A DNA stretch of 64,000 bases. It comes from Phycisphaerae bacterium (GTDB lineage: Bacteria > Planctomycetota > Phycisphaerae > WQYP01). Of this stretch, positions 26,954-43,419 are shown piece after piece. The stretch is from positions 14,370-78,369 of the forward strand of contig JBMFVY010000001.1 of assembly GCA_049965755.1 (NCBI GenBank). Direction: 5' to 3'. Position numbers and translations under genes: made by a program. The number at the start of each line of letters is the position of its first letter. The stretch's first letter is position 1. The notes below the pieces were generated by a model that saw only the letters and a list, made by a program, of their open reading frames with translations, was not told the DNA's origin and did not search any database.

Positions 26954-28102
26954 ATGCCGGATCAAACGACCGAGGAATCCAAACAACTGGAAGTCAGCGG
27001 GGGGGATGTAAGCGTCAAAAGTGCCGTTCCACGGATCAACCGTTTCTTTGAGGCGGTTACCAAGGTGGAAGGAAGCGATCTGCACATTAAGGCCGATGCC
27101 ATTCCGCGTATCCGCAAGGGGGGGCGACTGATGCAGACCAATTCCCCGGCGATGAAAAATGCGGAAATCGAATCCATGGTTAAGGAAATGCTCAACGACG
27201 AGCAGTGGCATGATTTCAGTCACCGCGGGTCGCTGGATATCGCCTACGCCATCACGCCCGTCGACCGTTTTCGGGTCAACATCTTCCGTCAGCGGGGAAT
27301 GGTGAGTCTGGCGGCACGCCGCATCAACCCCAAAATTCCGAATTTCAGCCAGCTTAATCTTCCCCCCATTTTCGAAAAAATCGCCGAACATGAGCAGGGG
27401 CTGGTCATGCTTGCCGGTATCACCGGCAGCGGCAAGAGCACCACCATTGCGGCGATGCTTGAGCAGGTCAATCAACGTCGATCTTGCCATATCGTTACGA
27501 TCGAAGACCCCATCGAATATCTGTATGTCGATAAAAAGGCGTACATCAACCAGCGTGAAGTAGGGCTGGATGTCGAGAGTTTCAGCGATGCCATCCGCTA
27601 TCTCATGCGCGAAGACCCGGATGTGATTCTCATCGGTGAGATGCGCGATAAAAACACCTTTCAGGCGGCGGTGCAGGCCGCTGAAACCGGCCACATGGTG
27701 TTTTCCACCATTCACGCCAGTTCCGCGCCCGGCGCCATCACCCGTCTGCTGGAACTTTTCCCGCCGGATATGCACACCAACATCCGCCAGGCCATCGCAA
27801 CGAATATGAAGGCAATTATTTTCCAGAAACTGGTCCCGTCGATCAAATCGGGCCTCGATCGCGTACCCGTTGTGGAAGTGATGCTCACCTCACCGTCGGT
27901 GCGTAAGTACATACTTGAAGGGCGCGAAAATGAACTCGGCCAGGTCATCCGTGGCGAGCGGCATGCCGGTATGATTGACTTCAACGACATGCTGGCGGAA
28001 CTGGTGCAGAGCGAATTTATTGCTTCCAAGGAGGCGTATCTCGCATCCCCCAATCCGGACGAACTGCGCATGCGGATGAAAGGTATCAAGACCTCAACCT
28101 GA
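26954..28102 (+). CDS. pilT: Type IV pilus retraction ATPase PilT/PilU family
   Basis: SDLHIKA, Walker A LVMLAGITGSGKSTT, Walker B DPDVILIGEMRD, His-box HMVFSTIHASSAPGAITRL and the PilT-specific block. 382 aa. Confidence 0.9.
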   Translation: MPDQTTEESKQLEVSGGDVSVKSAVPRINRFFEAVTKVEGSDLHIKADAIPRIRKGGRLMQTNSPAMKNAEIESMVKEMLNDEQWHDFSHRGSLDIAYAITPVDRFRVNIFRQRGMVSLAARRINPKIPNFSQLNLPPIFEKIAEHEQGLVMLAGITGSGKSTTIAAMLEQVNQRRSCHIVTIEDPIEYLYVDKKAYINQREVGLDVESFSDAIRYLMREDPDVILIGEMRDKNTFQAAVQAAETGHMVFSTIHASSAPGAITRLLELFPPDMHTNIRQAIATNMKAIIFQKLVPSIKSGLDRVPVVEVMLTSPSVRKYILEGRENELGQVIRGERHAGMIDFNDMLAELVQSEFIASKEAYLASPNPDELRMRMKGIKTST

Positions 28103-28261: not shown

Positions 28262-29995
28262 GTGGCGGTGGTGATGCACGGCTTTGTTTATGTCAATCCG
28301 GTTTTTCTGATCGTTTTCTTCCTGATCATCCTGGGTTGGGCAAAATTTGCCACATGGATCAGCACCGATCTCGATCAGCTCAATGATCAGAACGAAACCG
28401 TCTGGCGATCTGTACTTCTCGGGTCGTTTGGCCTCAACCTCCTGCTCTGGATCATCATCCCCAACTTTGCAGGAGCCTTGATTACCAATCTGATCGTGAT
28501 CGGCGGCATCTTCGGCTATTACATCAAGATACGTGTCGCACAACTCGGCCCGCCCCCCAATCCCCTCGATATGCTCACCGGCAAACTCGGTTCCACGGCC
28601 GAACAGCGGCAGGCCAAGAAATCGGCCGGGCAGTTGGCCCTCTCTTACCTCAATGCCGCCGGGCGCGGCGCCCCGCTTCCCAAAGTGGATGATCCCGCTT
28701 ATAACGGCGTGGTGTTGCTGGACAACCTCATATTCAGTGCCTTGGAGGCCCGCGCCCAGCGTATTGATCTGATACCGTCCGAGCAGGCCTACGATGTCAC
28801 CTACACCACCGATGGCGTTGGATATCCGCAATCCGGCATGCAGCGCAGCGCCGCAGAACCGATCATCCAATCCGTCAAACTGATATCCGGGCTCTCATTG
28901 GACGAGAGGCGACGCCCTCAGAAATCATCCCTCACGGTGGTCGACGCAGCGCACCATCGGACGCCTCTGGTCATTCGTACCAGCGGAACCACCGCCGGCG
29001 AACGCCTTACTCTCGTCATGAGCAGTTCCGACAGTTACAAGATGCCGCTGGATAACATCGGCCTCTCGTCGGAGCAACTCGCCGCCGTGCGCACCATCGT
29101 CAGCGATAATTCCGGTCTGGTCATTGTGGCATCGCCGCCTCATATGGGCCGCACCACCACGCTCTATTCCCTGATTGGTGCACACGATGCGTACACCCGC
29201 AGCATTCAGACGATTGAGGCCAATCCCCGGGCGGAATTTGAATCCATCACCGTCAACCCATTCGATCCGCAGGCGATCAACGCCAGTCACAGCAAGTTGC
29301 TTCAAAGCATCTGTCTGAAAGATCCCGACATTATCCTGGTCGGGCAGTGTCCCGATGCCGCGACCGCGGAAGTCATCTGTCGCTATGCCTCCAACGATCA
29401 TCGGGTTTATCTGGGCCTGCGGGCCGGTTCCGATGCCCCGACCATCATCGATTTATGGCGAAAGCTCCTCCCGGACAAGGAACTCGCCGCCCGTCCATTG
29501 CGCGCGGTGGTCTGTCAGCGTCTCATCCGTCTCCTGTGTCCGACCTGCAAAATCCCCTATCAGCCCGACGCCGAGACACTGGCCAAATTAAATCTTCCCG
29601 TCGGCCGACAGATGCAGGTTTTCAAGGCTAACACCCAACCGGCACGTGATCCCAAGGGTAATCCGGTCAAATGCCCCGATTGCGCCAGCCTCGGATATCG
29701 CGGCGTGACAGGCTTGTTTGAAGTACTGGTGGTGACGCCGGAAATTCGGGATATGATCGCGCATGGTCGGCCGGTTGAGGAAATACGCAACGCCGCCCGG
29801 AAAAACGGCATGATGATGCTCGTGGAACAGGGCATACGCAAGTTTGCGCTGGGCATTACCTCCATCCAGGAGGTGACCCGGGCACTCAGCGCAGAGCGTG
29901 CCAAGAAAACGCGCGAGGAAAAAATTACCTCCGCCAGCGGCAGCAGCACCACCGGTGCGGGATACGCCTCTCCCGGCGAGAGTCGATCGGAATAG
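28262..29995 (+). CDS. Membrane-anchored GspE/PilB-fold protein with degenerate Walker A (predicted pseudo-ATPase)
   Basis: Three N-terminal hydrophobic helices, then GspE-like N2 block (RIDLIPSEQAYDVTYTTDGV...LDERRRPQKSSL...RTSGTTAGERLTLVM). The P-loop position reads VIVASPPHMGRTTTLYS instead of G-x-x-G-x-GK-T/S (no Lys). Walker B-like DPDIILVGQCPD; tetra-Cys zinc motif CPTCK...CPDCASLGYRG; disordered S/T/G-rich tail. Confidence 0.7.
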   Translation: MAVVMHGFVYVNPVFLIVFFLIILGWAKFATWISTDLDQLNDQNETVWRSVLLGSFGLNLLLWIIIPNFAGALITNLIVIGGIFGYYIKIRVAQLGPPPNPLDMLTGKLGSTAEQRQAKKSAGQLALSYLNAAGRGAPLPKVDDPAYNGVVLLDNLIFSALEARAQRIDLIPSEQAYDVTYTTDGVGYPQSGMQRSAAEPIIQSVKLISGLSLDERRRPQKSSLTVVDAAHHRTPLVIRTSGTTAGERLTLVMSSSDSYKMPLDNIGLSSEQLAAVRTIVSDNSGLVIVASPPHMGRTTTLYSLIGAHDAYTRSIQTIEANPRAEFESITVNPFDPQAINASHSKLLQSICLKDPDIILVGQCPDAATAEVICRYASNDHRVYLGLRAGSDAPTIIDLWRKLLPDKELAARPLRAVVCQRLIRLLCPTCKIPYQPDAETLAKLNLPVGRQMQVFKANTQPARDPKGNPVKCPDCASLGYRGVTGLFEVLVVTPEIRDMIAHGRPVEEIRNAARKNGMMMLVEQGIRKFALGITSIQEVTRALSAERAKKTREEKITSASGSSTTGAGYASPGESRSE

Positions 29996-31780: not shown

Positions 31781-32416
31781 ATGGCATTTACTTTACCATC
31801 CCTTCCGTACGATTTCGCGGCACTCGAGCCGATCATCGATTCCCAAACCATGCAGATTCACCATGGCAAACACCACGGGGGTTACGTCGCCAACCTCAAC
31901 AAGGCCATTGAGGGGAAGTCAGCCCTTGAATCCAAATCCCTCGAAGCCCTCATCGGTGATTTGGCGGCGGTACCCGAAGATATCCGCGGTGCCGTACGCA
32001 ACAACGGTGGCGGACACGCCAACCATTCTCTGTTCTGGCAGATCATGGCGCCGCACGGCCACGGCGGAGGTGGCGAACCCACCGGTGAATTGCTTGCTGC
32101 CATCAATGCGGATTTCGGAAGCGTGGCGGAATTGAAAGCCAAAATCAATGATGCCGGGACCAAACGGTTTGGTTCAGGCTGGGCCTGGCTGGTCGTCAAG
32201 AATGGTAAACTGGCTGTCGGGTCAACCGCCAATCAGGATAATCCGCTCATGGGTGACACCGTTGCAGGCTTCTCAGGCAAGCCCATTCTCGGCGTGGACG
32301 TCTGGGAACATGCCTACTATCTCAAATACCAGAATCGGCGTCCGGATTACCTTGCCGCCTGGTGGGGCATTGTAAACTGGACCAAAGTTGCCGAATTGTA
32401 CAAAGCCGCCCGGTGA
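31781..32416 (+). CDS. sodA: Fe/Mn superoxide dismutase
   Basis: [40 protein letters not shown], metal-ligand His/Asp blocks ([17 protein letters not shown]). Canonical Fe/Mn-SOD. Confidence 0.95.
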
Positions 32417-32497
32417 CCGGTTCGCCGGCCGGAAATGACTCAGGCGGCCGATCAAAACCGCTCTTAGACCGTGCCGCCGTATAAAAAGAGGTGACCG

Positions 32498-32770
32498 ATG
32501 GGGAAAGCGAGTGTTGATCCGGCCGAACTGCGGCGCTTTGCGCAGGGCCTCAATCAATTTAATAACGATCTTCAGACCCTGATGGCCGGTCTCAGCGCCC
32601 GCATGCGGGCGCTGGAGAGCACCTGGCGCGATCAGGAGCAGAAGAAATTCGCCGAAGCCTTCGATCAGACGGCCAAATCGCTTTCGGTTTTTCTAGAGGC
32701 CTCCAGCCAGCATGCCAAGGTGTTGATGAAAAAGGCGCAGCTGATCGAAAAATATCTCAGCGAACATTGA
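32498..32770 (+). CDS. WXG100-superfamily-like small helical hairpin protein (variant W-R-D instead of W-x-G)
   Basis: 90 aa, AAAGAGGTGA RBS. Central motif STWRDQEQKKFAEAFDQT aligns with EsxA/YukE W-x-G-x-x-x-x-x-F-x-E-x-F (e.g. NWEGQAFSRFEEQF). Predicted all-helical; Trp at residue ~43 of 90. Confidence 0.6.
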   Translation: MGKASVDPAELRRFAQGLNQFNNDLQTLMAGLSARMRALESTWRDQEQKKFAEAFDQTAKSLSVFLEASSQHAKVLMKKAQLIEKYLSEH

Positions 32771-32784
32771 GTTGAGTTGAACCG

Positions 32785-33771
32785 ATGCCACAAGGTGCCA
32801 ATGTTCAATCCATTGAACTGCTCCGGGAATTGCAGACGGTGCTGTGGAAATTTCGCGAAGCCTGCGTCAGTTCTCTCAATGATGTGGAATCGGACCTGCG
32901 CCGCACGGTGATCTGGCTTGAGACGGAACAGGATAGCTATTGGAAAAGCCAGATACGCATCCGTCATGAGGCCCTCGAGCGGGCTAAAGAGGCGCTTCGC
33001 AGTAAAAAAATATTCAAAGATGCCTCCGGCCGCCCGCAATCCGTTGTCGAGGAGCAAAAGGCGCTCAAGATCGCCATGGCGCGCATGGCGGAGGCCGAAC
33101 AGAAGCTCGCCAATGTCCGCAAATGGGTGCGTGCCCTGCAGAAAGAAATTGAACTCTACAAATCCTCGGTGGGCCGCCTCTCTCACAGCGTGGAATCGCT
33201 CGTGCCTGCCGCCGTGCATCAGCTTGACCGGCTCACGACGTCGCTGGAAGCCTACGTAAACCTTGAGATACCCCAATCCGCTGCCCACAACAGCTCAGAT
33301 CATGCAGCCGGTGCCGGATTTGCCAACCGGGCCGAGGTTCTCACGGAAACCTCCGTACCAACCACACCTGCACCGATGGAAGTTCCCACTGACCAACAGC
33401 GTGCATCTGCACAACCTGCCTCGTCGATCGATATCCCCTGTCCGCAGATATCCGGCGACATTCTGGATCAGCTAACCATCGCCGCCGGGCAACTCCCCGT
33501 AGATTCACATAAGACTCTGGTCGCGCGTTCCATCGTCCGCGCGCCGATGGGGTTCACCCTCCTGCGCCGCTCACCTGCGGATGCCGATGACAGCGGTTGG
33601 ATGTTGCTTATCGATTCGGCGGATATTTCATCCGACGCTGCATGGGTGAAACTGAGCGTTGAATCTTTGCCGGGTGATGCGGCTCTTTGGAATATGATTT
33701 TGAGACTTCCCATCAATTCCAGCGTTAGGGTGATGGATGGTGCGGTGGTGCAGATCAGCCACGTGGAATGA
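32785..33771 (+). CDS. Hypothetical protein: N-terminal ~150-aa helical/coiled-coil domain, disordered linker, C-terminal ~100-aa domain; candidate secretion substrate or adaptor
   Basis: 328 aa. Starts 15 nt after the first WXG-like gene and ends 50 nt before the second. Heptad-rich N-terminus (LRELQTVLWKFREACVSS...KEIELYKSSVGRLSHSVESL), then a Pro/Ser/Thr/Ala-rich linker. Confidence 0.5.
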   Translation: MPQGANVQSIELLRELQTVLWKFREACVSSLNDVESDLRRTVIWLETEQDSYWKSQIRIRHEALERAKEALRSKKIFKDASGRPQSVVEEQKALKIAMARMAEAEQKLANVRKWVRALQKEIELYKSSVGRLSHSVESLVPAAVHQLDRLTTSLEAYVNLEIPQSAAHNSSDHAAGAGFANRAEVLTETSVPTTPAPMEVPTDQQRASAQPASSIDIPCPQISGDILDQLTIAAGQLPVDSHKTLVARSIVRAPMGFTLLRRSPADADDSGWMLLIDSADISSDAAWVKLSVESLPGDAALWNMILRLPINSSVRVMDGAVVQISHVE

Positions 33772-33821
33772 GATGCAAGCCGTGGCGGTGAGAACTCGGT
33801 TTACCTCAGGAGGACCTGCCG

Positions 33822-34034
33822 ATGGGTGTACATGAAAGCCAGGGGCGTCTGATCAAAGCCTTCAAAATGCTCCAGACACGCTGGGCACAGATCCATACCG
33901 GCTGGAACGACGCGGCCAGCGATCATTTCCAGGAAACATTTCTGGATCCGCTTGAAGCGGATGTCCGCAGTGCCGCTCAGGCCATCGATCATATGGCGGT
34001 CATATTGGGCAACGTAAAGAGAGATTGCGAGTAA
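33822..34034 (+). CDS. WXG100-superfamily-like small protein (second copy, motif W-N-D)
   Basis: 70 aa, CAGGAGGA RBS. Motif TGWNDAASDHFQETF matches W-x-[G/D]-x-A-x-x-x-F-x-E-x-F. Immediately upstream of the FtsK/SpoIIIE ATPase gene. Confidence 0.5.
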   Translation: MGVHESQGRLIKAFKMLQTRWAQIHTGWNDAASDHFQETFLDPLEADVRSAAQAIDHMAVILGNVKRDCE

Positions 34035-34067
34035 CACGGCAGATCATTTTGCCGGTATAAGGATGTC

Positions 34068-37000
34068 ATGCAGCAGATAGCCGATCAAGCCAACAGCAGC
34101 AACTCCACATGTCCCGCCGGGCCCGCCGATGGTGTCGGCCCGCTCGAGCGGCAGCGCAGCGCCCTGCGAGACCTTGTCGCGCTGGCTTCAGAATGTGCCC
34201 GGCGCGAAGCTGAAATTAATGAAGAATTCACCACCCAACGCGATACCGCCCGGGAGCGTTATAACGCTTCGATGAAAGAAATCGAGGCGCGGTTCAAGGC
34301 CCGCACGGACGAACTGGAAAATAAAATACACGAAGAAATGGACGGCATCGAACAGCAATACCGCCGGAAATTACAGACATTCCAGGCGGCTCATCAACAA
34401 ACGTGCGCCGGCATTCAGTGGGATTATTCCGCCGCCGAGAAGACCGCCCGATCGAGTTACGACGAAGCAAAACTCCTGATTGAAACCGGGCTTGATGCGT
34501 CTCACAACCGTGCACTGCAGGAAAAAGAAACATTAAAAGAAGAGGTCGCCTCTCATCTGGAAGCCGTCGAGAATCTCTTCAAGGAAACGGCGCAGGTCAT
34601 GGCCCGATACTCGCTCGTTCCTCCGGGTATCGAACCTGAAAAGGTAAAACCCCGGCTTCCTGCCGATCTATCCGTCAAAAAAGTGATGGCCGAGGAGCTT
34701 GAACAGGCGCGCTCCCGCCTTGCGGCGCTGGCTAAACTCCCCTTGCCGAAATTCATGTCGGGAATACTGCCGATAATGATCGGCCTGGCTCTTTGCAGTG
34801 TCGCAGGGATTGCCGCTCAGATGATCAAAGGGGGCTCCGTTCCGCACATCAAGACCATCACCATCGCAGTGGGTGTGGCGGTCGTCATTGAGGTGATCAT
34901 CTACATCCTGCTTCGGCGGGCCGCCAAGAAGCAGTTCAGTGCAGCATCCTTGCCGATCATCGAGGCGCTGGCCAGCAGCCACGCTGCATCTGAGCTTTTC
35001 TCGCAGGCACAGTTGGTGGAAATTCAAGCGGCTAACGATGCGGCCCGACGCAAAGGGCAGGCTGAACTGGATCGACTCAAACAACGCACCATCCAGACAA
35101 TTAAATCACTGCAGGAAAAGCGTTCGGCCCGCCTTGCCGCTGCCGAGGCCGATCGGGCTCGATCTACCGGCGAAGCGGATGCGGAAAAAGCTTCCCTGAT
35201 GGCGGCGCAGGCCACTTCCGCCGATGCCCGGCGAAATGAACTCAAACACAACTACGAAACGGAAATGGAGGCGGCGCGCAGAACGTTCGAAGGATCGAAT
35301 GCCGCCAACGAAGAACGAACCCGGCAGGCGTGGAGTGAACTTGATCAGCGTCTTCGAACCGGTCTGGCGCAAATCGCAGCTCCCACCGTTGATACCGGAA
35401 CCTCCGGCGGATACGCACCCGACGGTCGGCCGATCTGGGATCATTGGCACGCTCCTGAGAAATTTCCCGAATTAATGCCTTTCGGCCGTCTGAGCGTCAA
35501 CCTGAAGCAGATTGTGGATCAGGATTCAGCCGGCGCTCAGGTGAAATTGCAGTTTCCAGCGGAATTCACCGTGCCGGCATCACTGGCATTCCCGCACGGC
35601 GCATCCCTCGCGGTTCTTCATCAGCGCTCCGGCCGTGGCTTGGCTGTCGAGTTTCTGCGTGTGGTTATTCTCCGTCTGCTGACCTGTCTTCCCCCCGGTC
35701 GCGCCCGCTTTACCTTGATAGACCCCGTGGGCCTGGGGCAGAGCTTTGCGGGTTTCATGCGCCTCGCGGATTACGATGATGCCCTCGTCAACGGCCGAAT
35801 CTGGACTCAGCCCGATCAGATTGAACAGCGTCTCTCGCACATGACGGAGCACATGGAAACCGTCATCCAGAAATATCTTCGTAATGAATTCCCAACCATC
35901 GACGACTACAACGCCCAGGCCGGCGAATTGGCCGAACCGTATCGATTTCTGGTGGTGGCTGATTTTCCATCCGGCTTCGGCCCCGATGCACTTCGCAGGC
36001 TGGATGCCATCGCCGCCACCGGTGCCCGCTGCGGCGTCTACGTCCTGCTGTCATCCGAACGCGAGCAGAGCGGCGATGCGGCCGTCACACTTGATAAACT
36101 TCTGTCGCATTGTGTGGTACTTACTCAGGCGGAAGGTGGCTTCCAGTGGCGGGACGACATCTTCGGCAAGTTCCCGCTTACGCTCGATACATCGCCGACA
36201 GAAACAGTTATGACTACGCTGCTCGATCAGGTGGGCAAGGCCGCCAAAGCCAGTCAGCATGTTGAAGTCTCCTTTGAAACCATCGCCCCCAAAGAATCCC
36301 AGTGGTGGACCGGTAACAGTACCGCCGATCTCACCGTAGCCATCGGTCGTATGGGGGCTACGCGGCTCCAGATGCTGCGCCTGGGTAAAAATGTGGCGCA
36401 GCATGCACTCCTTGCCGGTAAGACGGGTTCCGGTAAATCGACGCTGCTTCATGTGCTGGTGACCAATCTTGCCATGTGGTATTCGCCGGACGAGGTGGAA
36501 CTCTATCTGATCGACTTCAAAAAGGGTGTGGAATTCAAAACCTACGCAGCGCACCGCCTGCCCCATGCCCGAGCCATTGCGGTGGAAAGCGATCGTGAAT
36601 TCGGTCTCAGCGTGCTGGAGCGGCTCGATGCGGAACTCGCCCGTCGCGGTGAATTATTCCGTGCCGCCGGCGTACAGGATCTCCCGTCCTATCGCCGCAC
36701 CACCGGCAAGCCGATGCCACGAACGATTCTCGTTATTGACGAATTTCAGGAATTTTTTACGGAAGATGACACCCTTGCCCAGCAGGCGGGACTGCTCCTC
36801 GACAGACTTGTTCGGCAGGGGCGCGCTTTCGGCGTGCACCTATTGCTCGGCTCGCAGACCGTCGGCGGTACTTCAGGCCTTGCCAGAAGCACGCTTGGCC
36901 AGATGGCCGTGCGCATCGCCCTGCAGGTGAGCGATGCCGATTCACAACTGATCCTCGGCGATAATAATTCTGCCGCCAAATTGCTCTCCCGCCCCGGTGC

Positions 37001-38039
37001 CGCGATCTATAACGACGCCGGCGGTCTCATCGAGGCCAACAGCCCATTTCAGGTTGCCTGGCTCTCTGATGAAAAGCGGGACGAATTTCTTGAAGCGGTT
37101 TCCCGTCGTGCCGCCCGCGTCGCCCATGACGGAAAAACCGCATGGCAGTCGAAGCCACCGGTCGTCTTCGAAGGCAATGCCCCGGCGGATGTGCATAACA
37201 ACGAACCCCTGAAAAAACTCCTCGTTTCGCTGCCGCCTGCTGCCATTCCTCTCGAACCCCACGCCTGGACAGGCGAACCGGTGGCGATCAAGGAACCGGC
37301 GTTCGTCACATTCCGACGCCAGAGCGGCGCTAATGTCATGCTCGTCGGTCAGCAGGAAGAACAGGCGCTCGCCGTCTTGAGTTGGATGCTCATCTCTCTC
37401 GCAGCCCAATTTCCAACCAATGGTGCGAAGTTTTATCTTCTTGACGGCACGCCCGCCGGATCGCCGCTTTCCGGTATCTTCCCCCAGTTGCCGTCACTGA
37501 TGCGCGGCGACGTTCAGGTTCCCGCCTGGCGCGATATTGAAAGCGCGATTGCCGCCATCGCCGCCGAGCTTTCCCAACGGCAGAAGGACCGGCGGCCCGA
37601 CGCCCCGGCCATCTTTCTGGTCATCTATGGCATGCAACGATTCCGCATGCTGCGAAAATCCGATTCCGATTTCGGGTTTTCACTTGGCGGCGCCGATGAG
37701 GAGAAAAAGGCCGACCCCGCAAAGGATTTCCAGGAGATCATTCGCGAAGGACCCGCCTTGGGCATTCATGTGCTGACCTGGGTTGATACGATGGCTTCCA
37801 TCGAGCGCACATTTGATCGTGCGATGCTGCGTGAATTTGATCAGCGTATTCTCTTTCAGATGAGCGCAGCCGACTCAAGCACATTGATTGATTCCGTCGC
37901 CGCCAACCGGTTGGGCTTTTACCGTGCCCTGCTGTGCAGCGAAGAACGCGGCACGATTGAAAAATTCCGCCCCTACGGCCTGCCCAAGGCCGCTGAACTT
38001 CAGCAGCTACGATCCGCTGATGCCGCAACGTCGGCGTAA
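34068..38039 (+). CDS. FtsK/SpoIIIE-family multi-domain ATPase, EssC/EccC-like (N-terminal coiled coil, 2 TM helices, three P-loop-type domains of which only the middle one is canonical)
   Basis: 1323 aa. Residues ~1-220 coiled coil. Two TM helices (ILPIMIGLALCSVAGIAAQMI; ITIAVGVAVVIEVIIYILL). Domain 1 has a degenerate P-loop (LAVLHQRSGRGLAVEF). Domain 2 is canonical: HALLAGKTGSGKSTLLHVL (Walker A), RTILVIDEFQEF (Walker B). Domain 3 is degenerate (NVMLVGQQEEQALAV; IFLVIYGMQRF). Confidence 0.8.
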   Translation: MQQIADQANSSNSTCPAGPADGVGPLERQRSALRDLVALASECARREAEINEEFTTQRDTARERYNASMKEIEARFKARTDELENKIHEEMDGIEQQYRRKLQTFQAAHQQTCAGIQWDYSAAEKTARSSYDEAKLLIETGLDASHNRALQEKETLKEEVASHLEAVENLFKETAQVMARYSLVPPGIEPEKVKPRLPADLSVKKVMAEELEQARSRLAALAKLPLPKFMSGILPIMIGLALCSVAGIAAQMIKGGSVPHIKTITIAVGVAVVIEVIIYILLRRAAKKQFSAASLPIIEALASSHAASELFSQAQLVEIQAANDAARRKGQAELDRLKQRTIQTIKSLQEKRSARLAAAEADRARSTGEADAEKASLMAAQATSADARRNELKHNYETEMEAARRTFEGSNAANEERTRQAWSELDQRLRTGLAQIAAPTVDTGTSGGYAPDGRPIWDHWHAPEKFPELMPFGRLSVNLKQIVDQDSAGAQVKLQFPAEFTVPASLAFPHGASLAVLHQRSGRGLAVEFLRVVILRLLTCLPPGRARFTLIDPVGLGQSFAGFMRLADYDDALVNGRIWTQPDQIEQRLSHMTEHMETVIQKYLRNEFPTIDDYNAQAGELAEPYRFLVVADFPSGFGPDALRRLDAIAATGARCGVYVLLSSEREQSGDAAVTLDKLLSHCVVLTQAEGGFQWRDDIFGKFPLTLDTSPTETVMTTLLDQVGKAAKASQHVEVSFETIAPKESQWWTGNSTADLTVAIGRMGATRLQMLRLGKNVAQHALLAGKTGSGKSTLLHVLVTNLAMWYSPDEVELYLIDFKKGVEFKTYAAHRLPHARAIAVESDREFGLSVLERLDAELARRGELFRAAGVQDLPSYRRTTGKPMPRTILVIDEFQEFFTEDDTLAQQAGLLLDRLVRQGRAFGVHLLLGSQTVGGTSGLARSTLGQMAVRIALQVSDADSQLILGDNNSAAKLLSRPGAAIYNDAGGLIEANSPFQVAWLSDEKRDEFLEAVSRRAARVAHDGKTAWQSKPPVVFEGNAPADVHNNEPLKKLLVSLPPAAIPLEPHAWTGEPVAIKEPAFVTFRRQSGANVMLVGQQEEQALAVLSWMLISLAAQFPTNGAKFYLLDGTPAGSPLSGIFPQLPSLMRGDVQVPAWRDIESAIAAIAAELSQRQKDRRPDAPAIFLVIYGMQRFRMLRKSDSDFGFSLGGADEEKKADPAKDFQEIIREGPALGIHVLTWVDTMASIERTFDRAMLREFDQRILFQMSAADSSTLIDSVAANRLGFYRALLCSEERGTIEKFRPYGLPKAAELQQLRSADAATSA

Positions 38040-38131
38040 CGCCACGGTCATCCATCGCGCCGTTGCTTGCGGCGGCCCGGTTGTGTATCGGTTGCCAAAA
38101 ATAACCGCACATCATGGCGGGGCTCCGACTT

Positions 38132-39244
38132 TCAGTGTATTCGGCGGAACATCCATGATGCCGTCAGCAGGCTCAGAACGGCAATGATGGACATCGGTAT
38201 GAGTTCCGGCATCAATTGGTGCACATTAGCCCCTTCAAGAAATGCCTCGCGTGCCGCCTGCACATCGTACCGCAGCGGATTGATAAGCGTGATCTTCTGC
38301 ACGAAACGCGGCATGTTGGATATCGGTGTCGCCAGGCCCGACAAAAGGGCACAAGGCATCACCAGCACAAATGTGCCCAGAAGAGCCTGTTGCATCGTGG
38401 ATGAAATCGAAGACACCAGCAGACCCAACCCCGCCGCTGCAATAATAAAGATGACAAAAGTGAGTACGATGGCCGCTGCCGAACCGTAATACGGAACATC
38501 AAACCAGTAGCGGACGATGACGAAGATGATGGCGGATTGACCCAACCCGATCAGAATAGGCGGAATGGTTTTACCCGCCATAATTTCCAGCGGTGTAAAA
38601 GGTGTTACCAGAAGCTGGTCAAATGTACCCTGTTCGCGTTCGCGCGCAATCGACATGGCGGTAATCACCATCACCGCCAGCATGGTGATAAGGCCGATCA
38701 TCCCCGGCACAATCTGCCATCGCGATAGCAGATTTGGATTAAACCAGGAACGTATCTGCAAAACCATCGGCGGAGCAATACCGGGATTCGCGGCCGATAA
38801 ATCTGCGTTGAACTGATTCTGAATTTCATTCAGGTAGCCGATAGCCAGAGCTGCCGTATTGGAATTGCGGCCGTCGGCAATAACCTGTACCTGCGCACTG
38901 CGGCCGGTGGCAATATCTCGGTCAAAGTGCTGTGGAATCTGGATGATCAGCAATGCCCTGCGCGAATCCAGCAAGGGGCGGGCGCGGCGGATATTTCCCA
39001 CCGATGCGACGCAATCAAAAATGCCCGAGCCGTTGATTCGACCGATGAACCGCGTCGACTCGCTGGAGTGGCTTTGATCCACCAGAACGTAGGGCACATG
39101 ATTAAGATCAAACGTGCCGGCATAGCCGAAAATAATCATCTGCAGGATCGGTGGCCCCAGCACAACAAATCGGCTGCGCGGGTCCTTGAAGATCGCCGTG
39201 AGTTCCTTGCGGATCAATGCCAAAATACGGAATATGATGTTCAT
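38132..39244 (-). CDS. ABC-2 type transporter permease
   Basis: 370 aa. One N-terminal TM, large periplasmic loop, then 5 C-terminal TMs (ABC-2/YhhJ-like topology). Part of a HlyD-ABC-permease-permease operon. Confidence 0.8.
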   Translation of the reverse strand: MNIIFRILALIRKELTAIFKDPRSRFVVLGPPILQMIIFGYAGTFDLNHVPYVLVDQSHSSESTRFIGRINGSGIFDCVASVGNIRRARPLLDSRRALLIIQIPQHFDRDIATGRSAQVQVIADGRNSNTAALAIGYLNEIQNQFNADLSAANPGIAPPMVLQIRSWFNPNLLSRWQIVPGMIGLITMLAVMVITAMSIAREREQGTFDQLLVTPFTPLEIMAGKTIPPILIGLGQSAIIFVIVRYWFDVPYYGSAAAIVLTFVIFIIAAAGLGLLVSSISSTMQQALLGTFVLVMPCALLSGLATPISNMPRFVQKITLINPLRYDVQAAREAFLEGANVHQLMPELIPMSIIAVLSLLTASWMFRRIH

Positions 39245-39245
39245 T

Positions 39246-40379
39246 TCATCCCAGCCGTTTCACTGTCAGCCGGCGCGTCAGGCCCAGAAAAATAACGGCC
39301 ATCAACACCAGCACCGCCGCATTAGGCAATATCACACTCCAGATATCACCCGCCAGAAACAACGTCTGCAGGAGTGCCACGAAATATCGTGCCGGAAGCA
39401 GGTAGGTGATGATCTGAATCGCTTCAGGCATGCTGCGTATATCAAAAATAAACCCTGAAAGCATCATCGCCGGTAGAAAGGTCAGCAGCAGCGCCGCCTG
39501 GCTGGCGATGAACTGGTTCTTTGTTCGCGTGGAAATCAGCAGCCCCATCCCCAGCGCCACCAGCAGGTAAAGCCCCGACACCAGAATCAACAGCGTCAGC
39601 GAACCACGGATCGGCACGTGAAACAATACTCTTGCCGCCGTCACCGCCACCGCCAGCCCGACCATCCCCAGACAGAAATACGGGACGATTTTGCTGATAA
39701 TGATTTCGCTCGGTTGCACGGGCGTAGCGAAAAGCGACTCAAACGTGCCGCGCTCCCATTCTCTTGCCACAACCAGTGCCGTCATCAGCGCCCCGATCAG
39801 CGTCATGATCAGCACCAATAACCCCGGCACCAGAAAATAGCGGCTGTCCATACTGCGGTTAAACCAGACCTGCTGCTCGATGGTGACCGGCTGCGCATAA
39901 CTGCGGCCGTGCGTCAGTTCCCACTGCGCAAGCCAGACACCCAGAACGCCCCGGGCATAGTTCTGAATTAATCGCGAGCGATTCGCGTCGATGCTGTTGA
40001 CCGTGAACTGAATATTCGCATGCCCGTTTCGCAAATTGCGGGAAAAGTCATGCCGCAGGCGCACAATCCCGTCGACGGCTCCCGCTGCCAGAAGTTTTTC
40101 CGCCTCAACCATGGAGTTAACCGCCTCCGGATGGAAATATCTCGACCCGGCAAACGCTCCAAATACCGATTGTGCCGACGGCGAGTGATCTTCCATCACC
40201 ACCGCCACGGGAACATGGTGGGCGTCAAGCGAGAGCCCGTAACCGAAAAGCAGGATCAGCAGAAGCGGAAGCACGATCCCCAGTGCAATGCTGCTCGGAT
40301 CGCGAATCATCTGCAGCGTTTCCTTGCGGCTCATCGCGACGATGCGGCGCAGCTTTCCAAGTGGAGCGGGGTGATTCAT
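39246..40379 (-). CDS. ABC-2 type transporter permease (second copy)
   Basis: 377 aa, same topology as the adjacent permease, 2-nt intergenic gap. Confidence 0.8.
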   Translation of the reverse strand: MNHPAPLGKLRRIVAMSRKETLQMIRDPSSIALGIVLPLLLILLFGYGLSLDAHHVPVAVVMEDHSPSAQSVFGAFAGSRYFHPEAVNSMVEAEKLLAAGAVDGIVRLRHDFSRNLRNGHANIQFTVNSIDANRSRLIQNYARGVLGVWLAQWELTHGRSYAQPVTIEQQVWFNRSMDSRYFLVPGLLVLIMTLIGALMTALVVAREWERGTFESLFATPVQPSEIIISKIVPYFCLGMVGLAVAVTAARVLFHVPIRGSLTLLILVSGLYLLVALGMGLLISTRTKNQFIASQAALLLTFLPAMMLSGFIFDIRSMPEAIQIITYLLPARYFVALLQTLFLAGDIWSVILPNAAVLVLMAVIFLGLTRRLTVKRLG

Positions 40380-42217
40380 GCAGCGCCTCTCGCCTTGGCG
40401 GCGGCTTTCTGCTCGTCCATCACCACCTGAATAAAGGCATCCTCTATCGTCGGTTCTTTTCGGTCGGGCGTGGCGGCAATTTTTCGGATTTCAGCAGGCG
40501 TTCCCCCGGCCAGTACACGCCCGTTCATCATGATCACCATGCGGTCGCAATATTCCGCTTCCTCCATAAAATGCGTCGTCACCACCACGGTAACCTGTTG
40601 ATCGGCCATGGCGGTAATCCGCTGCCAGAATTCCCGCCGGGCCAGCGGATCAACGCCCGATGTCGGTTCATCCAGAAATAGTATCTGCGGTTCATGCAGC
40701 AGGGCACACGCCATCGCCAATCGTCGCTTGAATCCGTCGGGAATCTCACCGGTTTTGTTCGGAAGGACGCGGGAAAGTTCAAATTCCTCTACCGCCCATC
40801 CCAATCGCCGTTTTCGGCGGCTTCCCCGCAAGCCGTAGGCACTGGCGAAAAAAGCGAGATTTTCCTCCACCGTCAATTGGCCATACAGCGAAAATTTCTG
40901 GGCCACATACCCCACCGCCTGCCGGGCCGACGCTCTTGCGTGCCGCAGATCGTACCCCGCCACCCGCAAAGTGCCGGAGGACAGCGGCAGGAGCCCGCAC
41001 AGCATGCGAAATGTCGTACTTTTACCGGCGCCATTCGGCCCCAGCAAACCAAAAATCTCTCCTCTGCGTATCTCAAAATTGACATGATCCACGGCGACGA
41101 AATCCCCGAATCGGCGCACCAAGTCGCGCACCGCCACCACGGGTTCATCGGAATGGTTCGCCGCCGGTGGCAGTGGGGGAGTGATATCGGGATTTCCTTT
41201 CGGGATATCACCACCGCCCGCCGATTCGGCCGCCGGTAACGTGGACGCCAGCGCCCGGCGCAGGACCACCATAAAACCATCCGCCAGATGCGGCTCAACC
41301 TCCCGTGCACCGCTCGGCGCCAATTCGCCCGGTGTCCGATCACCCGGCGCCTGTTCGCTGTCCGTGTTGCCCGCCTTAAGCACCAGACGCACCTCTCCCC
41401 CATTGGGCACTGCATCAGCCGTGCTGCTGACACGCAGCAGCGATGCCACCATCTGCCGCGGTTTCATGCCCGGCGGGGTGCGAAGTTGAAACGTCCGTCC
41501 ACGGGCATAATTCGCAACATCCCCCGGCGATCCCTGCGCCAATATCCTGCCGCGATACATCACCACAGCGTGATTACAGAATTCCGCCTCTTCCAGATAA
41601 GGCGTGCTGATTAAAAGCGTCAGCGATCGGGCTTTAACCAGATCGAGCAAAATCGCCCAGAGTTCCCGCCGAGAAACAGGGTCCACGCCGACGGTTGGTT
41701 CATCCAGAATCAACAACTCGGGCGATTGCACCAGTGCGCAGGCAAGTCCGAGTTTCTGTTTCATGCCGCCCGAAAGATGCCCGGCCAGTCGCTTTGTAAA
41801 TCGCCCCAGATTGGTCATGGCGAATAATTCCGGATATCGCGTGCGCCGATCCGCAGACGGTACACTGTGCAGATCCGCATATAAATCCAGATTTTCCTGC
41901 ACGGTTAAATCTTCGTAGAGACCGAATTTTTGCGGCATGTAACTCACGTGGGATTCCGCCGCATGCGGATGCTGAATAATATTGTGCCCCAGCACCTCAA
42001 TCTTGCCTGAATTCGGCGCCATCAACCCCATGATCAGCCGGATCAATGTGGTCTTGCCGGCGCCATCGGGCCCCACCAGCGCCACCATCAATCCCCGGCG
42101 CACTTCCAGTGAAATGCCCGCCAGTGCGGCTGTGATTCCTCCGCGTCCGTCGGGAAATGTTTTATGCACATCCCGACACGCAATGATCGGTTCCGTATCT
42201 GACTGGCCGAACTCCAT
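40376..42217 (-). CDS. ABC transporter ATP-binding protein with two fused ABC domains (RbbA/YhiH-like)
   Basis: Two Walker A motifs (GPDGAGKTT; GPNGAGKST), two LSGGMKQ-type signatures and Walker B (LILDEPTVGVD; LFLDEPTSGVD). Start taken at MEFGQSDTEP, adjacent to the HlyD stop. Confidence 0.85.
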   Translation of the reverse strand: MEFGQSDTEPIIACRDVHKTFPDGRGGITAALAGISLEVRRGLMVALVGPDGAGKTTLIRLIMGLMAPNSGKIEVLGHNIIQHPHAAESHVSYMPQKFGLYEDLTVQENLDLYADLHSVPSADRRTRYPELFAMTNLGRFTKRLAGHLSGGMKQKLGLACALVQSPELLILDEPTVGVDPVSRRELWAILLDLVKARSLTLLISTPYLEEAEFCNHAVVMYRGRILAQGSPGDVANYARGRTFQLRTPPGMKPRQMVASLLRVSSTADAVPNGGEVRLVLKAGNTDSEQAPGDRTPGELAPSGAREVEPHLADGFMVVLRRALASTLPAAESAGGGDIPKGNPDITPPLPPAANHSDEPVVAVRDLVRRFGDFVAVDHVNFEIRRGEIFGLLGPNGAGKSTTFRMLCGLLPLSSGTLRVAGYDLRHARASARQAVGYVAQKFSLYGQLTVEENLAFFASAYGLRGSRRKRRLGWAVEEFELSRVLPNKTGEIPDGFKRRLAMACALLHEPQILFLDEPTSGVDPLARREFWQRITAMADQQVTVVVTTHFMEEAEYCDRMVIMMNGRVLAGGTPAEIRKIAATPDRKEPTIEDAFIQVVMDEQKAAAKARGAA

Positions 42218-42218
42218 C

Positions 42219-43253
42219 TCAATGCCTCGCCTTGCGGAGCGGGATCGGCTGCGGTGTGATCGGAATTTCAACCGTCGCCGGCATTCCCAGTCGAAGTTGG
42301 TCGTGCGGATCTTTTACATAAACCCGAACTTCATAAACCAGACTGGTGCGAAGTTGTGTCGTCTCAACTGATTTCGGAGTGAACTCCGCTATCGGTGAGA
42401 TAAATCCTACCCATCCGGCAAATTTCTTCCCAGGAAAGCTGTCAACGGTGATCCAAGCCTTGGAGCCGCCATGGACAAATCCTAAATCCCTCTCCGGTAT
42501 ATACGCACGCACCCATTTGGGATTCATGATGGCGATGGTGTAAACGGGCGTTTGCGGACTGGCCATGTCGCCGGGTTCAAGAATCCGCGTTCGCACCACG
42601 CCATTCACCGGACTCTTCAGATAGGTGTCCGCAAGATATTGTTCCAGCAGGGCCAGCTGCGCTTTGTCCGCCTGCAGCTTGGCCGCGGCCTCTGCAATAT
42701 CTTCCACACGCGGGCCCAACACCGCCAACCGCAGCGTTTCCTTTGCCGCATGGGCCTGCTGGTTATCCACCTTCCATAAAGCCTTTTCGTTGTCATATTG
42801 AATCTGCGTGATATCGCCCGTGGCAAGCAATTTTTCATAACGCTTCACATTCACCAGATCATTGGCGGCCTTCGCCGCCGCCGCGGCATAGAGCGCCCGA
42901 TCCATCGCAATTTCCTGCGGACGGCTGCCACGCTTCAATCGCAACCACACCTGTTTTTGCGCTGCCAGAACCGCCTTTGCCTCGGCCGCCTGATGAATCA
43001 GCCAGTCGGTATCCAGGGTGGCGACCAGTTCTCCCTTTCTGACCGTTGCCCCCTCGTGCACCAGCTCCCGTGTGATGCGGCCCGATTCCTTAAACGCTAG
43101 TTGCACATCCCGCTCATCCATATTTCCATAAAGTACAACGCTCGTCAGCGGACCATGCTTCTGGCTTTGCTTCCAGCGGTAAATGCCATAACTCGCCCCC
43201 GCAATCAATAAAAGTACCACCAGAAGCCGAATTACTTTTCGCTTCATAAACAT
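42219..43253 (-). CDS. HlyD-family membrane fusion protein (periplasmic adaptor)
   Basis: N-terminal TM (LLVVLLLIAGASYGIY), long coiled-coil region, beta-barrel C-terminus. Canonical HlyD_D23 architecture preceding the ABC ATPase. Confidence 0.8.
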   Translation of the reverse strand: MFMKRKVIRLLVVLLLIAGASYGIYRWKQSQKHGPLTSVVLYGNMDERDVQLAFKESGRITRELVHEGATVRKGELVATLDTDWLIHQAAEAKAVLAAQKQVWLRLKRGSRPQEIAMDRALYAAAAAKAANDLVNVKRYEKLLATGDITQIQYDNEKALWKVDNQQAHAAKETLRLAVLGPRVEDIAEAAAKLQADKAQLALLEQYLADTYLKSPVNGVVRTRILEPGDMASPQTPVYTIAIMNPKWVRAYIPERDLGFVHGGSKAWITVDSFPGKKFAGWVGFISPIAEFTPKSVETTQLRTSLVYEVRVYVKDPHDQLRLGMPATVEIPITPQPIPLRKARH

Positions 43254-43419
43254 AACCTTTCAATGGACCGCCAAAACTTACATGTTGCCCGCTTGCGCAA
43301 CCGGTAAACTATGGCCCCCATGCAGCAGCTTGTTTTCTTTGCCCAATCAGCCGAACATTATTGTAAGTGGCGGCGGCGGCACACGCTATGAGCCGCAAAA
43401 CAGCTCTGGCACGGTTGAA

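What the first reader, a model, noticed from the sequence alone, without database searches (positions are those of the whole stretch)
34068..38039. EssC-like ATPase has degenerate-active-degenerate P-loop domain order
Read directly from the sequence. Domain 1 (LAVLHQRSGRGLAVEF) and domain 3 (NVMLVGQQEEQALAV, Walker-B-like IFLVIYGMQRF) lack the Walker A lysine. The middle domain is fully canonical (LAGKTGSGKST; ILVIDEFQEF). In mycobacterial EccC and firmicute EssC, the first ATPase domain is the essential, canonical one. The inversion here suggests a different regulatory logic, e.g. the pseudo-ATPase domains acting as substrate/EsxB-tail receptors.
Basis: seen in the sequence. Interest (0 to 1): 0.6.

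Follow-up and report, generated by a model that had tools for sequence, protein, structure and literature searches.

The report
Planctomycete three-domain EssC-like secretion ATPase
The gene encodes a membrane-anchored secretion motor found across the Planctomycetota, with one working ATPase domain between two dead copies; known type VII secretion motors also start with a dead domain, so this is a leaner version of them, not an inverted one.

Summary
ORF 34068-38039 (+) encodes a 1323-aa protein with three tandem FtsK/EccC-fold domains. Only the middle one has Walker A (GKTGSGKS) and Walker B (DE), both invariant in 121 family representatives. The outer two lack the P-loop lysine and the catalytic glutamate.

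The "inversion" reading is not supported. EccC/EssC also carry a degenerate ATPase-like domain (DUF) before the catalytic D1, so their order is already degenerate-active-degenerate-degenerate. The active domain here matches D1 best in every comparison.

Two caveats apply:
- D1 is the least diverged EccC domain and may attract any canonical domain.

What differs from described systems:
- Three domains, not the four reported for T7SSa-j.
- A single nucleotide site per protomer.
- Coiled-coil regions on both sides of a two-helix membrane hairpin, and no FHA domains.
- A conserved four-gene cassette (WXG100, helical protein, small WXG-like protein, ATPase) in at least 579 species genomes. The 80 best are all Planctomycetota.

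I rate it a new variant of a known kind, of moderate interest.

The parts
32498..32770 (+). WXG100-family gene (90 aa) with W-R-D in place of W-x-G; first gene of the cassette and the presumed substrate
   Evidence: Pfam WXG100 at 4.7e-10. Found in the same position in 64 of 84 related loci. Mean pairwise identity is 57% over 65 copies, and the C-terminal 'KKA..IEEYL.QR' is conserved.
32785..33771 (+). Cassette gene 2 (328 aa): conserved helical N-terminal region of about 165 aa plus a variable C-terminal part (weak Imm33-like match)
   Evidence: The N-terminal profile is found in 64 of 84 loci between the WXG100 gene and the small gene. Imm33-like scores E 0.082 here and 3.9e-8 in the L001 homologue. 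Gene length varies from 170 to 343 aa.
33822..34034 (+). Cassette gene 3 (70 aa): small, possibly WXG100-like helical protein ('RW...W.D..A..FE')
   Evidence: Found in 67 of 84 loci immediately upstream of the ATPase. Weak Pfam WXG100 match at E 0.018. hhalign to the cassette WXG100 gives E 9e-4 but only 22% probability, with the W.D motifs in register.
34068..38039 (+). EssC/EccC-like membrane ATPase, 1323 aa (whole ORF including the stop codon)
34068..34751 (+). N-terminal region (aa 1-228), read as cytoplasmic coiled coil; takes the place of the FHA domains of EssC
   Evidence: No significant Pfam domain. Length is conserved but sequence is not: 17% mean identity. The coiled-coil reading is from the sequence; this region was not modelled.
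34752..34922 (+). Two-helix transmembrane hairpin (about aa 229-251 and 260-285)
   Evidence: Kyte-Doolittle 19-residue window peaks above 1.6 at aa 224-236 and 256-268 only, apart from a minor one inside domain A.
34923..35474 (+). Region between the membrane hairpin and domain A (aa 286-469), read as a coiled-coil 'stalk'
   Evidence: 17% mean identity across the family; alignment A1. Only its last 15 residues were modelled.
35475..36302 (+). Domain A (aa 470-745): pseudo-ATPase with a well-preserved FtsK fold. The P-loop position is 'LAVLH-Q-RSGRGLAVEF' (35607-35654) and the Walker-B position is 'RFLVVADFP' (35943-35969)
36303..37157 (+). Domain B (aa 746-1030): the only canonical ATPase, D1-like. 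Walker A GKTGSGKS (36417-36440); Walker B ILVIDE (36726-36743)
   Evidence: Pfam FtsK_SpoIIIE at 3.7e-35. The best stretch in every EccC chain is D1. hhalign scores: D1 209, D2 141, D3 55, DUF 28. The motifs and R940/R949 are 99-100% conserved. The model shows a canonical strand, five-residue loop and helix starting at K790.
37158..37997 (+). Domain C (aa 1031-1310): C-terminal pseudo-ATPase. The P-loop position is 'VMLVGQQEEQA' (37335-37367) and the Walker-B position is 'IFLVIYGMQRF' (37611-37643). It is the candidate receptor for the WXG100 tail
   Evidence: hhalign to domain B gives 97% probability and E 1e-11; to EccC/EssC-like D2 79, D1 70, D3 48. Conserved motifs are G1094-Q1095-x-[DE]-[ED] and [YH]-[GD]-LQRFRxLR. 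The loop is shortened to three residues in the model. R1251 and R1260 align to R940 and R949 of domain B.

Best explanation
The ORF encodes the motor of a minimal WXG100 (type-VII-like) export module that is conserved across the Planctomycetota.

Architecture: a two-helix membrane hairpin, flanked on both sides by poorly conserved regions read as coiled coil, anchors three stacked FtsK/EccC-fold domains in the cytoplasm. Only the middle domain (B) can bind and hydrolyse ATP. It corresponds to D1 of EccC/EssC.

Domain A, nearest the membrane, is a pseudo-ATPase whose P-loop has collapsed into an extended first helix. It most likely forms a structural ring that couples the motor to the membrane part, the role proposed for the DUF domain of EccC. 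Domain C, at the C-terminus, has also lost the Walker A Lys/Ser and the Walker B Asp-Glu. It most likely acts as the docking and regulatory module for the conserved C-terminal tail of the co-encoded WXG100 protein, as D3 does in EccC/EssC. On this view, docking controls multimerisation and ATP turnover at the single active site.

The degenerate-active-degenerate order is therefore the ordinary EccC/EssC order (DUF-D1-D2-D3) with one C-terminal domain fewer. It is not an inversion.

Shown here: the folds, the motif states, their conservation, the D1-likeness of domain B, and the conserved four-gene cassette. Inferred: secretion of the WXG100 protein, ring formation, domain A's structural role and domain C's receptor role.
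For: - Three FtsK-fold domains are present, and only domain B has intact motifs.
- Domain B is most like D1: phmmer 68-73 bits to D1 versus 24-44 to D2 and 18 to D3, EccCa 125 bits versus EccCb 96, hhalign 209/141/55/28 for D1/D2/D3/DUF.
- The three-domain model (pLDDT 91.7) has T. curvata EccC as its top PDB match, at E 3e-32 over 953 columns.
- Domain A's P-loop is replaced by an extended helix in both models. The same feature is reported for the EccC DUF, together with loss of the Lys, the Ser/Thr and the catalytic Glu (PMC11154593).
- The literature gives EccC/EssC four NTPase-like domains, with a degenerate DUF, a catalytic D1 and degenerate, regulatory D2/D3. [quoted passage not shown]
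- The cassette WXG100, helical protein, small protein, ATPase occurs in the same order and strand in 64 of 84 loci. Nearly all misses are contigs cut off upstream, and the flanking genes differ between loci.
- Both dead domains are under constraint: 49% and 44% mean identity, against 17% for the N-terminal and stalk regions. Each has its own conserved replacement motif.
- The WXG100 protein and its C-terminal tail are unusually conserved, at 57% mean identity.
Against: - Domain B's preference for D1 could partly reflect that both are the least diverged, catalytically constrained domains.
- No other T7SS core component was found next to the cassette.
- Planctomycetota have an outer membrane, and no route across it is evident.
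- No NCBIfam EccC/EssC model reaches its curated cut-off.
- Secretion, hexamer formation and tail binding are untested.
Confidence: 0.68

Rival explanations
1. True inversion. Domains A, B and C are the orthologues of D1, D2 and D3. D1 has died, D2 has become the motor, and the DUF has been replaced by the coiled-coil stalk, giving a different regulatory logic.
For: - The hhalign ranking for domain A is D2, then D1, then DUF.
- The three-domain model aligns collinearly with EccC D1-D3.
Against: - Domain B matches D1 better than D2 in every test, and domain C matches D2 better than D3. None of the three pairings that this model predicts is the best one.
- The collinear match to 4nh0 is forced, because that chain has only three modelled domains.
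- Actinobacterial DUF profiles show the same D2 > D1 >> D3 similarity ranking as domain A.
- Even if true, the functional layout (a dead ring next to the membrane, then the motor) would still equal that of EccC/EssC.
Confidence: 0.12
2. Independent origin. The three domains arose by their own tandem duplication of an FtsK/D1-like domain in the planctomycete lineage, or in an ancestor older than the four-domain EccC/EssC. The flanking copies then degenerated in parallel with DUF, D2 and D3.
For: - Domains A and C are more similar to each other (hhalign 70, E 1.5e-9) than domain A is to any EccC domain.
- Domain A is not DUF-like in structure.
- There are three domains, not four, whereas all described T7SSa-j ATPases have four.
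Against: - Domain B is far more similar to D1 (E 1e-30) than to its own neighbours A and C (E 0.08 and 9e-12). Any such duplication would therefore be ancient.
- The shared link to WXG100 genes argues for common descent of the system as a whole.
Confidence: 0.2
3. The outer domains still bind nucleotide in a non-canonical way, for example with the conserved R523 of domain A standing in for the Walker lysine. The protein would then have more than one functional nucleotide site.
For: - G522-R523 is conserved (87 and 108 of 121) at the G-K position.
- Actinobacterial EssC-like D3 domains carry G-S-G-R-[ST], with Arg in place of Lys.
- Domain C keeps arginines that align with R940 and R949 of domain B.
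Against: - Domain A lacks the glycine-rich loop and the Ser/Thr. F633 sits at the catalytic-Glu position, and its loop is modelled as helix.
- Domain C has acidic residues where the phosphate-binding Lys-Ser should be, and no acidic Walker B pair.
- The analogous EccC5 DUF, which has an Arg in its degenerate motif, did not bind ATP in vitro; there the Arg forms a salt bridge to the Walker B Asp (PMC11154593).
Confidence: 0.08
4. It is not a protein-secretion motor at all, but a DNA translocase, a conjugation coupling protein or a defence ATPase that merely shares the FtsK fold.
For: - The central domain also matches FtsK, TcpA, HerA, SspH and mad8 models.
Against: - The best sequence and whole-model matches are EccC/EssC.
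- No Pfam match other than P-loop NTPase families was found on the protein, so no FtsK gamma or winged-helix domain.
- The gene is tightly and almost always linked to WXG100 genes.
- PADLOC hits are confined to the generic P-loop domain.
- The cassette is phylum-wide and the flanking genes looked at are ordinary metabolic or transport genes, not mobile-element genes.
Confidence: 0.04

Closest known systems
EccC (T7SSa, Actinomycetota; e.g. T. curvata EccC 4NH0, M. tuberculosis EccC5 7NP7/8RIN)
   Same: - A two-helix membrane anchor followed by stacked FtsK-fold domains.
- A degenerate domain next to the membrane, then one canonical catalytic domain (D1-like; best sequence and model match), then a degenerate C-terminal domain.
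- Co-encoded with WXG100 genes.
   Different: - Three domains rather than four.
- Domain C has lost the P-loop Lys entirely, whereas EccC D2 and D3 keep G-K-[ST].
- Long regions read as coiled coil lie on both sides of the membrane hairpin.
- No EccB, EccD, EccE or MycP genes are nearby.
- The host phylum has an outer membrane.
- Scores are far below the NCBIfam cut-offs (125 versus 509 bits).
EssC / YukB (T7SSb, Bacillota; 4LYA, 5FV0, 6TV1, 9QKS)
   Same: - A membrane-bound FtsK-related motor with a DUF, a catalytic D1 and a poorly binding or dead C-terminal D3.
- WXG100 tails are reported to bind a pocket on the EccC/EssC ATPase domains.
- 4LYA (EssC D2-D3) is the top Foldseek hit for domain A, and has a target-normalised TM-score of 0.64 against the three-domain model.
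   Different: - No N-terminal FHA domains.
- Three domains, not four.
- No EsaA, EssA, EssB or YukD/EsaB genes in the cassette.
- The WXG100 protein has W-R-D rather than W-x-G and is 57% conserved across a phylum.
T7SSg (Acetivibrio/Paenibacillus; Garrett et al. 2024, PMC11217815)
   Same: A simple system: two WXG100 proteins, an FHA-less membrane ATPase and very few other components.
   Different: - TsgC is reported with four NTPase domains.
- T7SSg also has a ubiquitin-like TsgB and a beta-propeller TsgL, which are absent here.
- T7SSg is found in Gram-positive hosts.
FtsK / TcpA DNA translocases and coupling proteins
   Different: FtsK and TcpA have a single motor domain per chain; FtsK also has DNA-binding elements, and neither is linked to WXG100 genes. 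Here there are three tandem domains, two of them dead, and no match to a DNA-binding domain.

Membership tests
EccC/EssC type VII secretion ATPase | N-terminal membrane anchor of two transmembrane helices | tested here: met
   The only two strong hydropathy peaks are at about aa 229-251 and 260-285; they are present across alignment A1.
EccC/EssC type VII secretion ATPase | Four cytosolic NTPase-like domains (DUF, D1, D2, D3), as reported for T7SSa-j | tested here: not met
   Only three FtsK-fold domains are present (aa 470-745, 746-1030, 1031-1310) in alignment A1 and in the model of aa 455-1323 (pLDDT 91.7). Residues 1-454 were not modelled and gave no significant Pfam domain. The four-domain statement is from PMC11217815.
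EccC/EssC type VII secretion ATPase | Canonical catalytic D1 (GxxGxGK[ST], hhhhDE) preceded by a degenerate ATPase-like domain | tested here: met
   Domain B has GKTGSGKS and DE conserved at 100%, and D1 is its best match. Domain A is degenerate with a collapsed P-loop. Orthology of domain A to DUF is not shown.
EccC/EssC type VII secretion ATPase | Encoded next to WXG100-family genes | tested here: met
   A WXG100 gene lies at 32498-32770. The cassette is conserved in 64 of 84 loci.
EccC/EssC type VII secretion ATPase | Reaches the curated NCBIfam equivalog scores (TIGR03924 EccCa, TIGR03925 EccCb, TIGR03928 EssC) | tested here: not met
   Scores are 125, 96.5 and 109 bits against cut-offs of 509, 347 and 778. 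Only the central domain matches.
EccC/EssC type VII secretion ATPase | Accompanied by lineage-specific core components (EccB/D/E/MycP, or EsaA/EssA/EssB/EsaB-YukD) | tested here: not met
   Pfam scans of 17 ORFs around the gene found none. The genes flanking the cassette differ between loci. Only the 64-kb window and about 6-8 kb of flank at four related loci were inspected, not whole genomes.
EccC/EssC type VII secretion ATPase | ATP-dependent export of WXG100 substrates; substrate tail binds the C-terminal domain | not testable with these tools
   This needs secretion assays and binding experiments. The only support here is indirect: strong conservation of the WXG100 C-terminal tail and of domain C.
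FtsK/SpoIIIE DNA translocase | Single alpha/beta motor domain plus a DNA-recognition (gamma, winged-helix) domain | tested here: not met
   No Pfam match other than P-loop NTPase families was found, so no FtsK gamma domain. The NCBIfam FtsK model scores 28.7 bits against a cut-off of 1566.
EccC DUF domain (for domain A) | Degenerate Walker A without Lys or Ser/Thr, folded as an extended alpha-1 helix; Walker B Glu replaced | tested here: met
   DSSP on both models shows a strand at aa 514-518, a one-residue turn, then a helix at aa 520-540. F633 is at the Glu position. The features are as described in PMC11154593.
EccC DUF domain (for domain A) | Specific sequence or structural similarity to known DUF domains, above that to D1-D3 | tested here: not met

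The most novel reading that the evidence does not exclude
The cassette may be a phylum-wide housekeeping machine of the Planctomycetota, not an effector-delivery system. It would be a distinct, perhaps early-branching, lineage of WXG100/FtsK-type translocases that runs on a single ATP site per protomer, flanked by two pseudo-ATPase rings. Its WXG100 protein is exceptionally conserved (57% identity; W-R-D motif) and might then serve a structural or envelope-related role in these unusual diderm bacteria. If so, it would also be a natural minimal model for separating catalytic from scaffolding roles in T7SS motors.
Probability: 0.18. Interest if true: 0.8.

Novelty: new variant of a known kind. 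Interest (0 to 1): 0.45.

Why it matters
T7SS research has been confined to Actinomycetota and Bacillota, where every described variant (a-j) has a four-domain motor. The roles of the extra nucleotide-binding domains there are still debated.

This family has only one nucleotide site, two clearly dead but strongly conserved FtsK-fold domains, and a four-gene cassette. It gives a natural experiment on what the non-catalytic rings do. It also raises the question of what a WXG100 system does in bacteria with an outer membrane.

The family is large: at least 1363 clusters at 50% identity with E <= 1e-30 and at least 579 species genomes. The source names seen are only generic or wrong, so better annotation is a practical gain. 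The specific claim of an "inverted" domain order, however, should not be carried forward.

Tried and rejected
- A profile of domain A (A2) against all PDB sequences gave no hit at E <= 10. NCBIfam gave nothing meaningful for domain A or the N-terminal region. Domain A was only placed by profile-profile and structure comparison.
- The word-index homologue search found only 18 full-length relatives and badly understated the family. The exhaustive profile search found 3090.
- PADLOC matched only the generic FtsK/HerA-type P-loop domain (SspH, mad8, HerA), with no system-level match. A defence role was rejected.
- I tried to show that the 328-aa middle protein is WXG100- or LXG-like. hhalign gave E 0.048 and 1% probability, which is not significant.
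- The promoter and terminator scan of 32200-38300 found no more than shuffled sequence gives.
- There are no tRNA genes and no Rfam families in the window.
- Three related loci with a full upstream flank (L002, L038, L070) lack the three upstream cassette genes even at E <= 10. I did not pursue whether these are paralogues or rearranged loci.
- Foldseek of the whole three-domain model against 4NH0 aligns all three domains collinearly. This says nothing about orthology, because that chain has only three modelled domains.
- A link between the cassette and the two T2SSE ATPase genes upstream was considered. They are absent from most related loci, so the link was rejected.

Full report
**Observation.** The ORF at 34068-38039 (+) is real. 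It encodes 1323 aa and is identical to an NCBI entry, [quoted passage not shown] (P0001). Pfam detects only one FtsK_SpoIIIE domain, at aa 750-979 (3.7e-35). The other two segments are also FtsK-fold domains:
- Domain C (aa 1031-1310) aligns to domain B over about 200 columns with the P-loops in register. hhalign gives 97% probability and E about 1e-11.
- Domain A (aa 470-745) aligns to domain C at E 1.5e-9.
- A model of all three domains (aa 455-1323, 80-sequence alignment) reaches pLDDT 91.7 and pTM 0.83. Its best PDB match is the cytoplasmic region of T. curvata EccC, at E 3e-32 over 953 columns.

**Motif states across the family.** An exhaustive profile search with domain A found 3090 cluster representatives, 1363 of them at E <= 1e-30. 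The best 150 include many of about 1300 aa (shorter ones look like fragments), and in these the domain sits at about residue 450. I aligned 121 full-length members.
- Domain B keeps G784-K-T-G-S-G-K790-S, D891-E892, R940 and R949 at 99-100%.
- Domain A has S-L-L-h-x(3-4)-G522-R523-x-x-A526 at the P-loop position. There is no Lys-Ser/Thr, and h-h-h-A-[D/N]632-F633-P634 sits at the Walker B position.
- Domain C has h-h-h-V-G1094-Q1095-[QR]-[DE]-[ED]-x-A, and h-h-h-h-[YH]-[GD]-L-Q-R-F-R at the Walker B position.
- In the models, domain B has the canonical strand, five-residue loop, then helix starting at K790. Domain A goes from strand (aa 514-518) to helix (aa 520-540) through a single residue. 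Domain C has a three-residue loop.
- The catalytic Glu is retained only in domain B. The arginines equivalent to R940 and R949 are retained in domain C (R1251, R1260).
- Both dead domains are under clear constraint. Mean pairwise identity is 49% for A, 67% for B and 44% for C, against 17-21% for the N-terminal region, the membrane hairpin and the stalk.

So the observation "degenerate-active-degenerate" is confirmed and is a stable family trait.

**Why "inversion" is the wrong reading.** Those proteins have four cytosolic NTPase-like domains. The first is the DUF domain. It has an ATPase-like fold, but its Walker A is shortened, lacks Lys and Ser/Thr, and folds as an extended alpha-1 helix. 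Its Walker B Glu is replaced, and it does not bind ATP. D1 is the canonical motor, and D2 and D3 are degenerate and regulatory (Ceballos-Zuniga et al. 2024, PMC11154593; Garrett et al. 2024, PMC11217815). The normal order is therefore degenerate-active-degenerate-degenerate.

The active domain here resembles D1 most in every test:
- phmmer: 67.7, 73.1 and 72.7 bits to D1 of three EccC chains, against 44.3, 33.8 and 24.4 to D2 and 18.3 to D3.
- NCBIfam: EccCa 125 bits, matched at model positions 413-658 (which I take to be its D1 part), against EccCb 96.5.
- hhalign against domain profiles built from actinobacterial EssC/EccC-like proteins: D1 209, D2 141, D3 55, DUF 28.

Domain C is closest to D2 (79), then D1 (70) and D3 (48). 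The simplest reading is DUF-position domain, then D1, then one D2/D3-like domain, which is one domain fewer than any described T7SS motor.

**Caveats.** Domain A is not demonstrably a DUF orthologue.
- Its profile scores D2 (55) and D1 (47) above the actinobacterial DUF profile (25, E 0.013).
- The actinobacterial DUF profile shows the same D2 > D1 >> D3 ranking. Both may simply be independently diverged copies.
- D1 is the least diverged EccC domain and may attract any canonical domain.

I therefore keep two evolutionary rivals open: a true inversion (about 0.12) and an independent duplication with parallel decay (about 0.2). Neither changes the functional picture. In EccC/EssC too, a dead ring lies between the membrane and the motor.

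**Genomic context and distribution.** The ATPase is the last gene of a tight four-gene, same-strand cluster with intergenic gaps of 14, 50 and 33 nt:
- A 90-aa WXG100 gene at 32498-32770 (Pfam 4.7e-10).
- A 328-aa protein at 32785-33771, with a conserved helical N-terminal region of about 165 aa and a variable C-terminal part. The Imm33-like match is weak here and 3.9e-8 in a homologue.
- A 70-aa protein at 33822-34034 that looks like a shortened WXG100 hairpin. Pfam gives E 0.018. hhalign to the cassette WXG100 gives E 9e-4 with the W.D motifs in register, but only 22% probability.

The same order is seen at loci whose ATPases are only 37-43% identical to this one, while the flanking genes differ. 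The 80 best are all Planctomycetota, from Tepidisphaerales, Phycisphaerales, Sedimentisphaerales, Pirellulales, Gemmatales, Isosphaeraceae (including Singulisphaera and Paludisphaera) and Planctomycetales. Across those 80 loci plus the four fetched earlier, all three upstream genes are present in order in 64 of 84. Almost all the misses are contigs truncated upstream; the exceptions are L002, L038 and L070.

The WXG100 protein carries W-R-D instead of W-x-G and has a conserved C-terminal 'KKA..IEEYL.QR'. It is 57% identical on average across 65 loci, which is unusually high for this superfamily; one paper puts typical identity among WXG100 proteins at about 15% (PMC6471051). No EccB/D/E/MycP or EsaA/EssA/EssB/YukD-type genes were found nearby.

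**Mechanism proposed.**
- Shown: the anatomy, the motif states and their conservation, and the cassette linkage.
- Inferred by analogy with EccC/EssC: the protein forms stacked rings under the membrane. Domain B is the only site of ATP turnover. Domain A is a structural ring that couples the motor to the stalk and membrane hairpin. Domain C docks the conserved tail of the WXG100 protein (or of a dimer with the 70-aa partner) and gates multimerisation and activity.
It is the known logic of these motors, not a new one.

**Comparison and novelty.** The protein works like an EccC/EssC motor but fails several membership criteria. It has three rather than four domains. It scores far below the NCBIfam cut-offs. 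It has no partner core components nearby. It has poorly conserved regions, read as coiled coil, on both sides of the membrane hairpin, and no FHA domains. Its host phylum has an outer membrane.

In the literature library I found no description of WXG100/FtsK systems in Planctomycetota. A paper citing Sutcliffe (2011) reports WXG100 proteins in Cyanobacteria, Lentisphaerae, Proteobacteria and Verrucomicrobia (PMC6471051). The 2024 survey of T7SS variants covers only Bacillota and Actinomycetota and states that all have four NTPase domains.

I classify it as a new variant of a known kind. The domain-order "inversion" itself is an artefact of how the domains were counted. Interest is moderate (0.45), and it comes from the minimal, single-site, phylum-wide system, not from the claim as originally framed.

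Noticed in passing
window 32498-32770 (+); 65 related copies in L001-L084: The cassette WXG100 protein has W-R-D-Q-E instead of the W-x-G motif. It is 57% identical on average across the phylum, with a conserved C-terminal 'KKA..IEEYL.QR'. That is far more conserved than WXG100 proteins usually are, which hints at a housekeeping role and not an arms-race role.
   Followed up: partly
window 33822-34034 (+): An unannotated-looking 70-aa ORF directly upstream of the ATPase is conserved in 67 of 84 loci. It resembles a WXG100 hairpin that lacks the start of helix 1 ('RW...W.D..A..FE'). It is probably the heterodimer partner of the 90-aa protein, but the similarity is weak (hhalign probability 22%).
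   Followed up: partly
window 32785-33771 (+); L001 6505-7536, L003 5033-5545, L004 5125-5748: The middle cassette gene has a conserved helical N-terminal region of about 165 aa and a C-terminal part that varies from absent (170 aa in total) to an Imm33-like domain (E 3.9e-8 in L001). This layout recalls polymorphic T7SS substrates, but similarity to WXG100 or LXG domains was not significant.
   Followed up: partly
window 34068-34751 and 34923-35474 (aa 1-228 and 286-469 of the ATPase): Two long regions that read as coiled coil flank the membrane hairpin. They are conserved in length but only about 17% identical across the family. If the second one is extended, it would hold the ATPase rings unusually far from the membrane.
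   Followed up: no
window 26954-28102 and 28262-29995 (+); L004 1-279 (-): Two T2SSE-family (type II/IV secretion or pilus) ATPase genes lie 2.5-5.5 kb upstream of the cassette, and one is also seen about 4.5 kb upstream in L004. T7SSg loci are reported to sit next to Tad pilus genes (PMC11217815). The association is absent from L001-L003, so it is probably coincidental.
   Followed up: partly
L002 (P0018), L038, L070: Three ATPase homologues with full upstream flanks lack recognisable WXG100, middle and small genes upstream, even at E <= 10. They may be paralogues, rearranged loci, or carriers of very divergent partners.
   Followed up: partly
P0004 and P0015: Source annotations for close family members are clearly wrong: 'plasmid maintenance system antidote protein VapI' and 'ABC-type multidrug transport system fused ATPase/permease'. 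The NCBI name is only the generic 'FtsK/SpoIIIE domain-containing protein'. No source name seen for this family is a proper one.
   Followed up: no
window 38132-45192 (-): Convergent with the ATPase gene is an operon-like run on the minus strand: two ABC-2 permeases, a double ABC ATPase, an HlyD-type membrane-fusion protein and an ArsA-like double ATPase. It appears unrelated to the cassette, as it is not seen at related loci.
   Followed up: no
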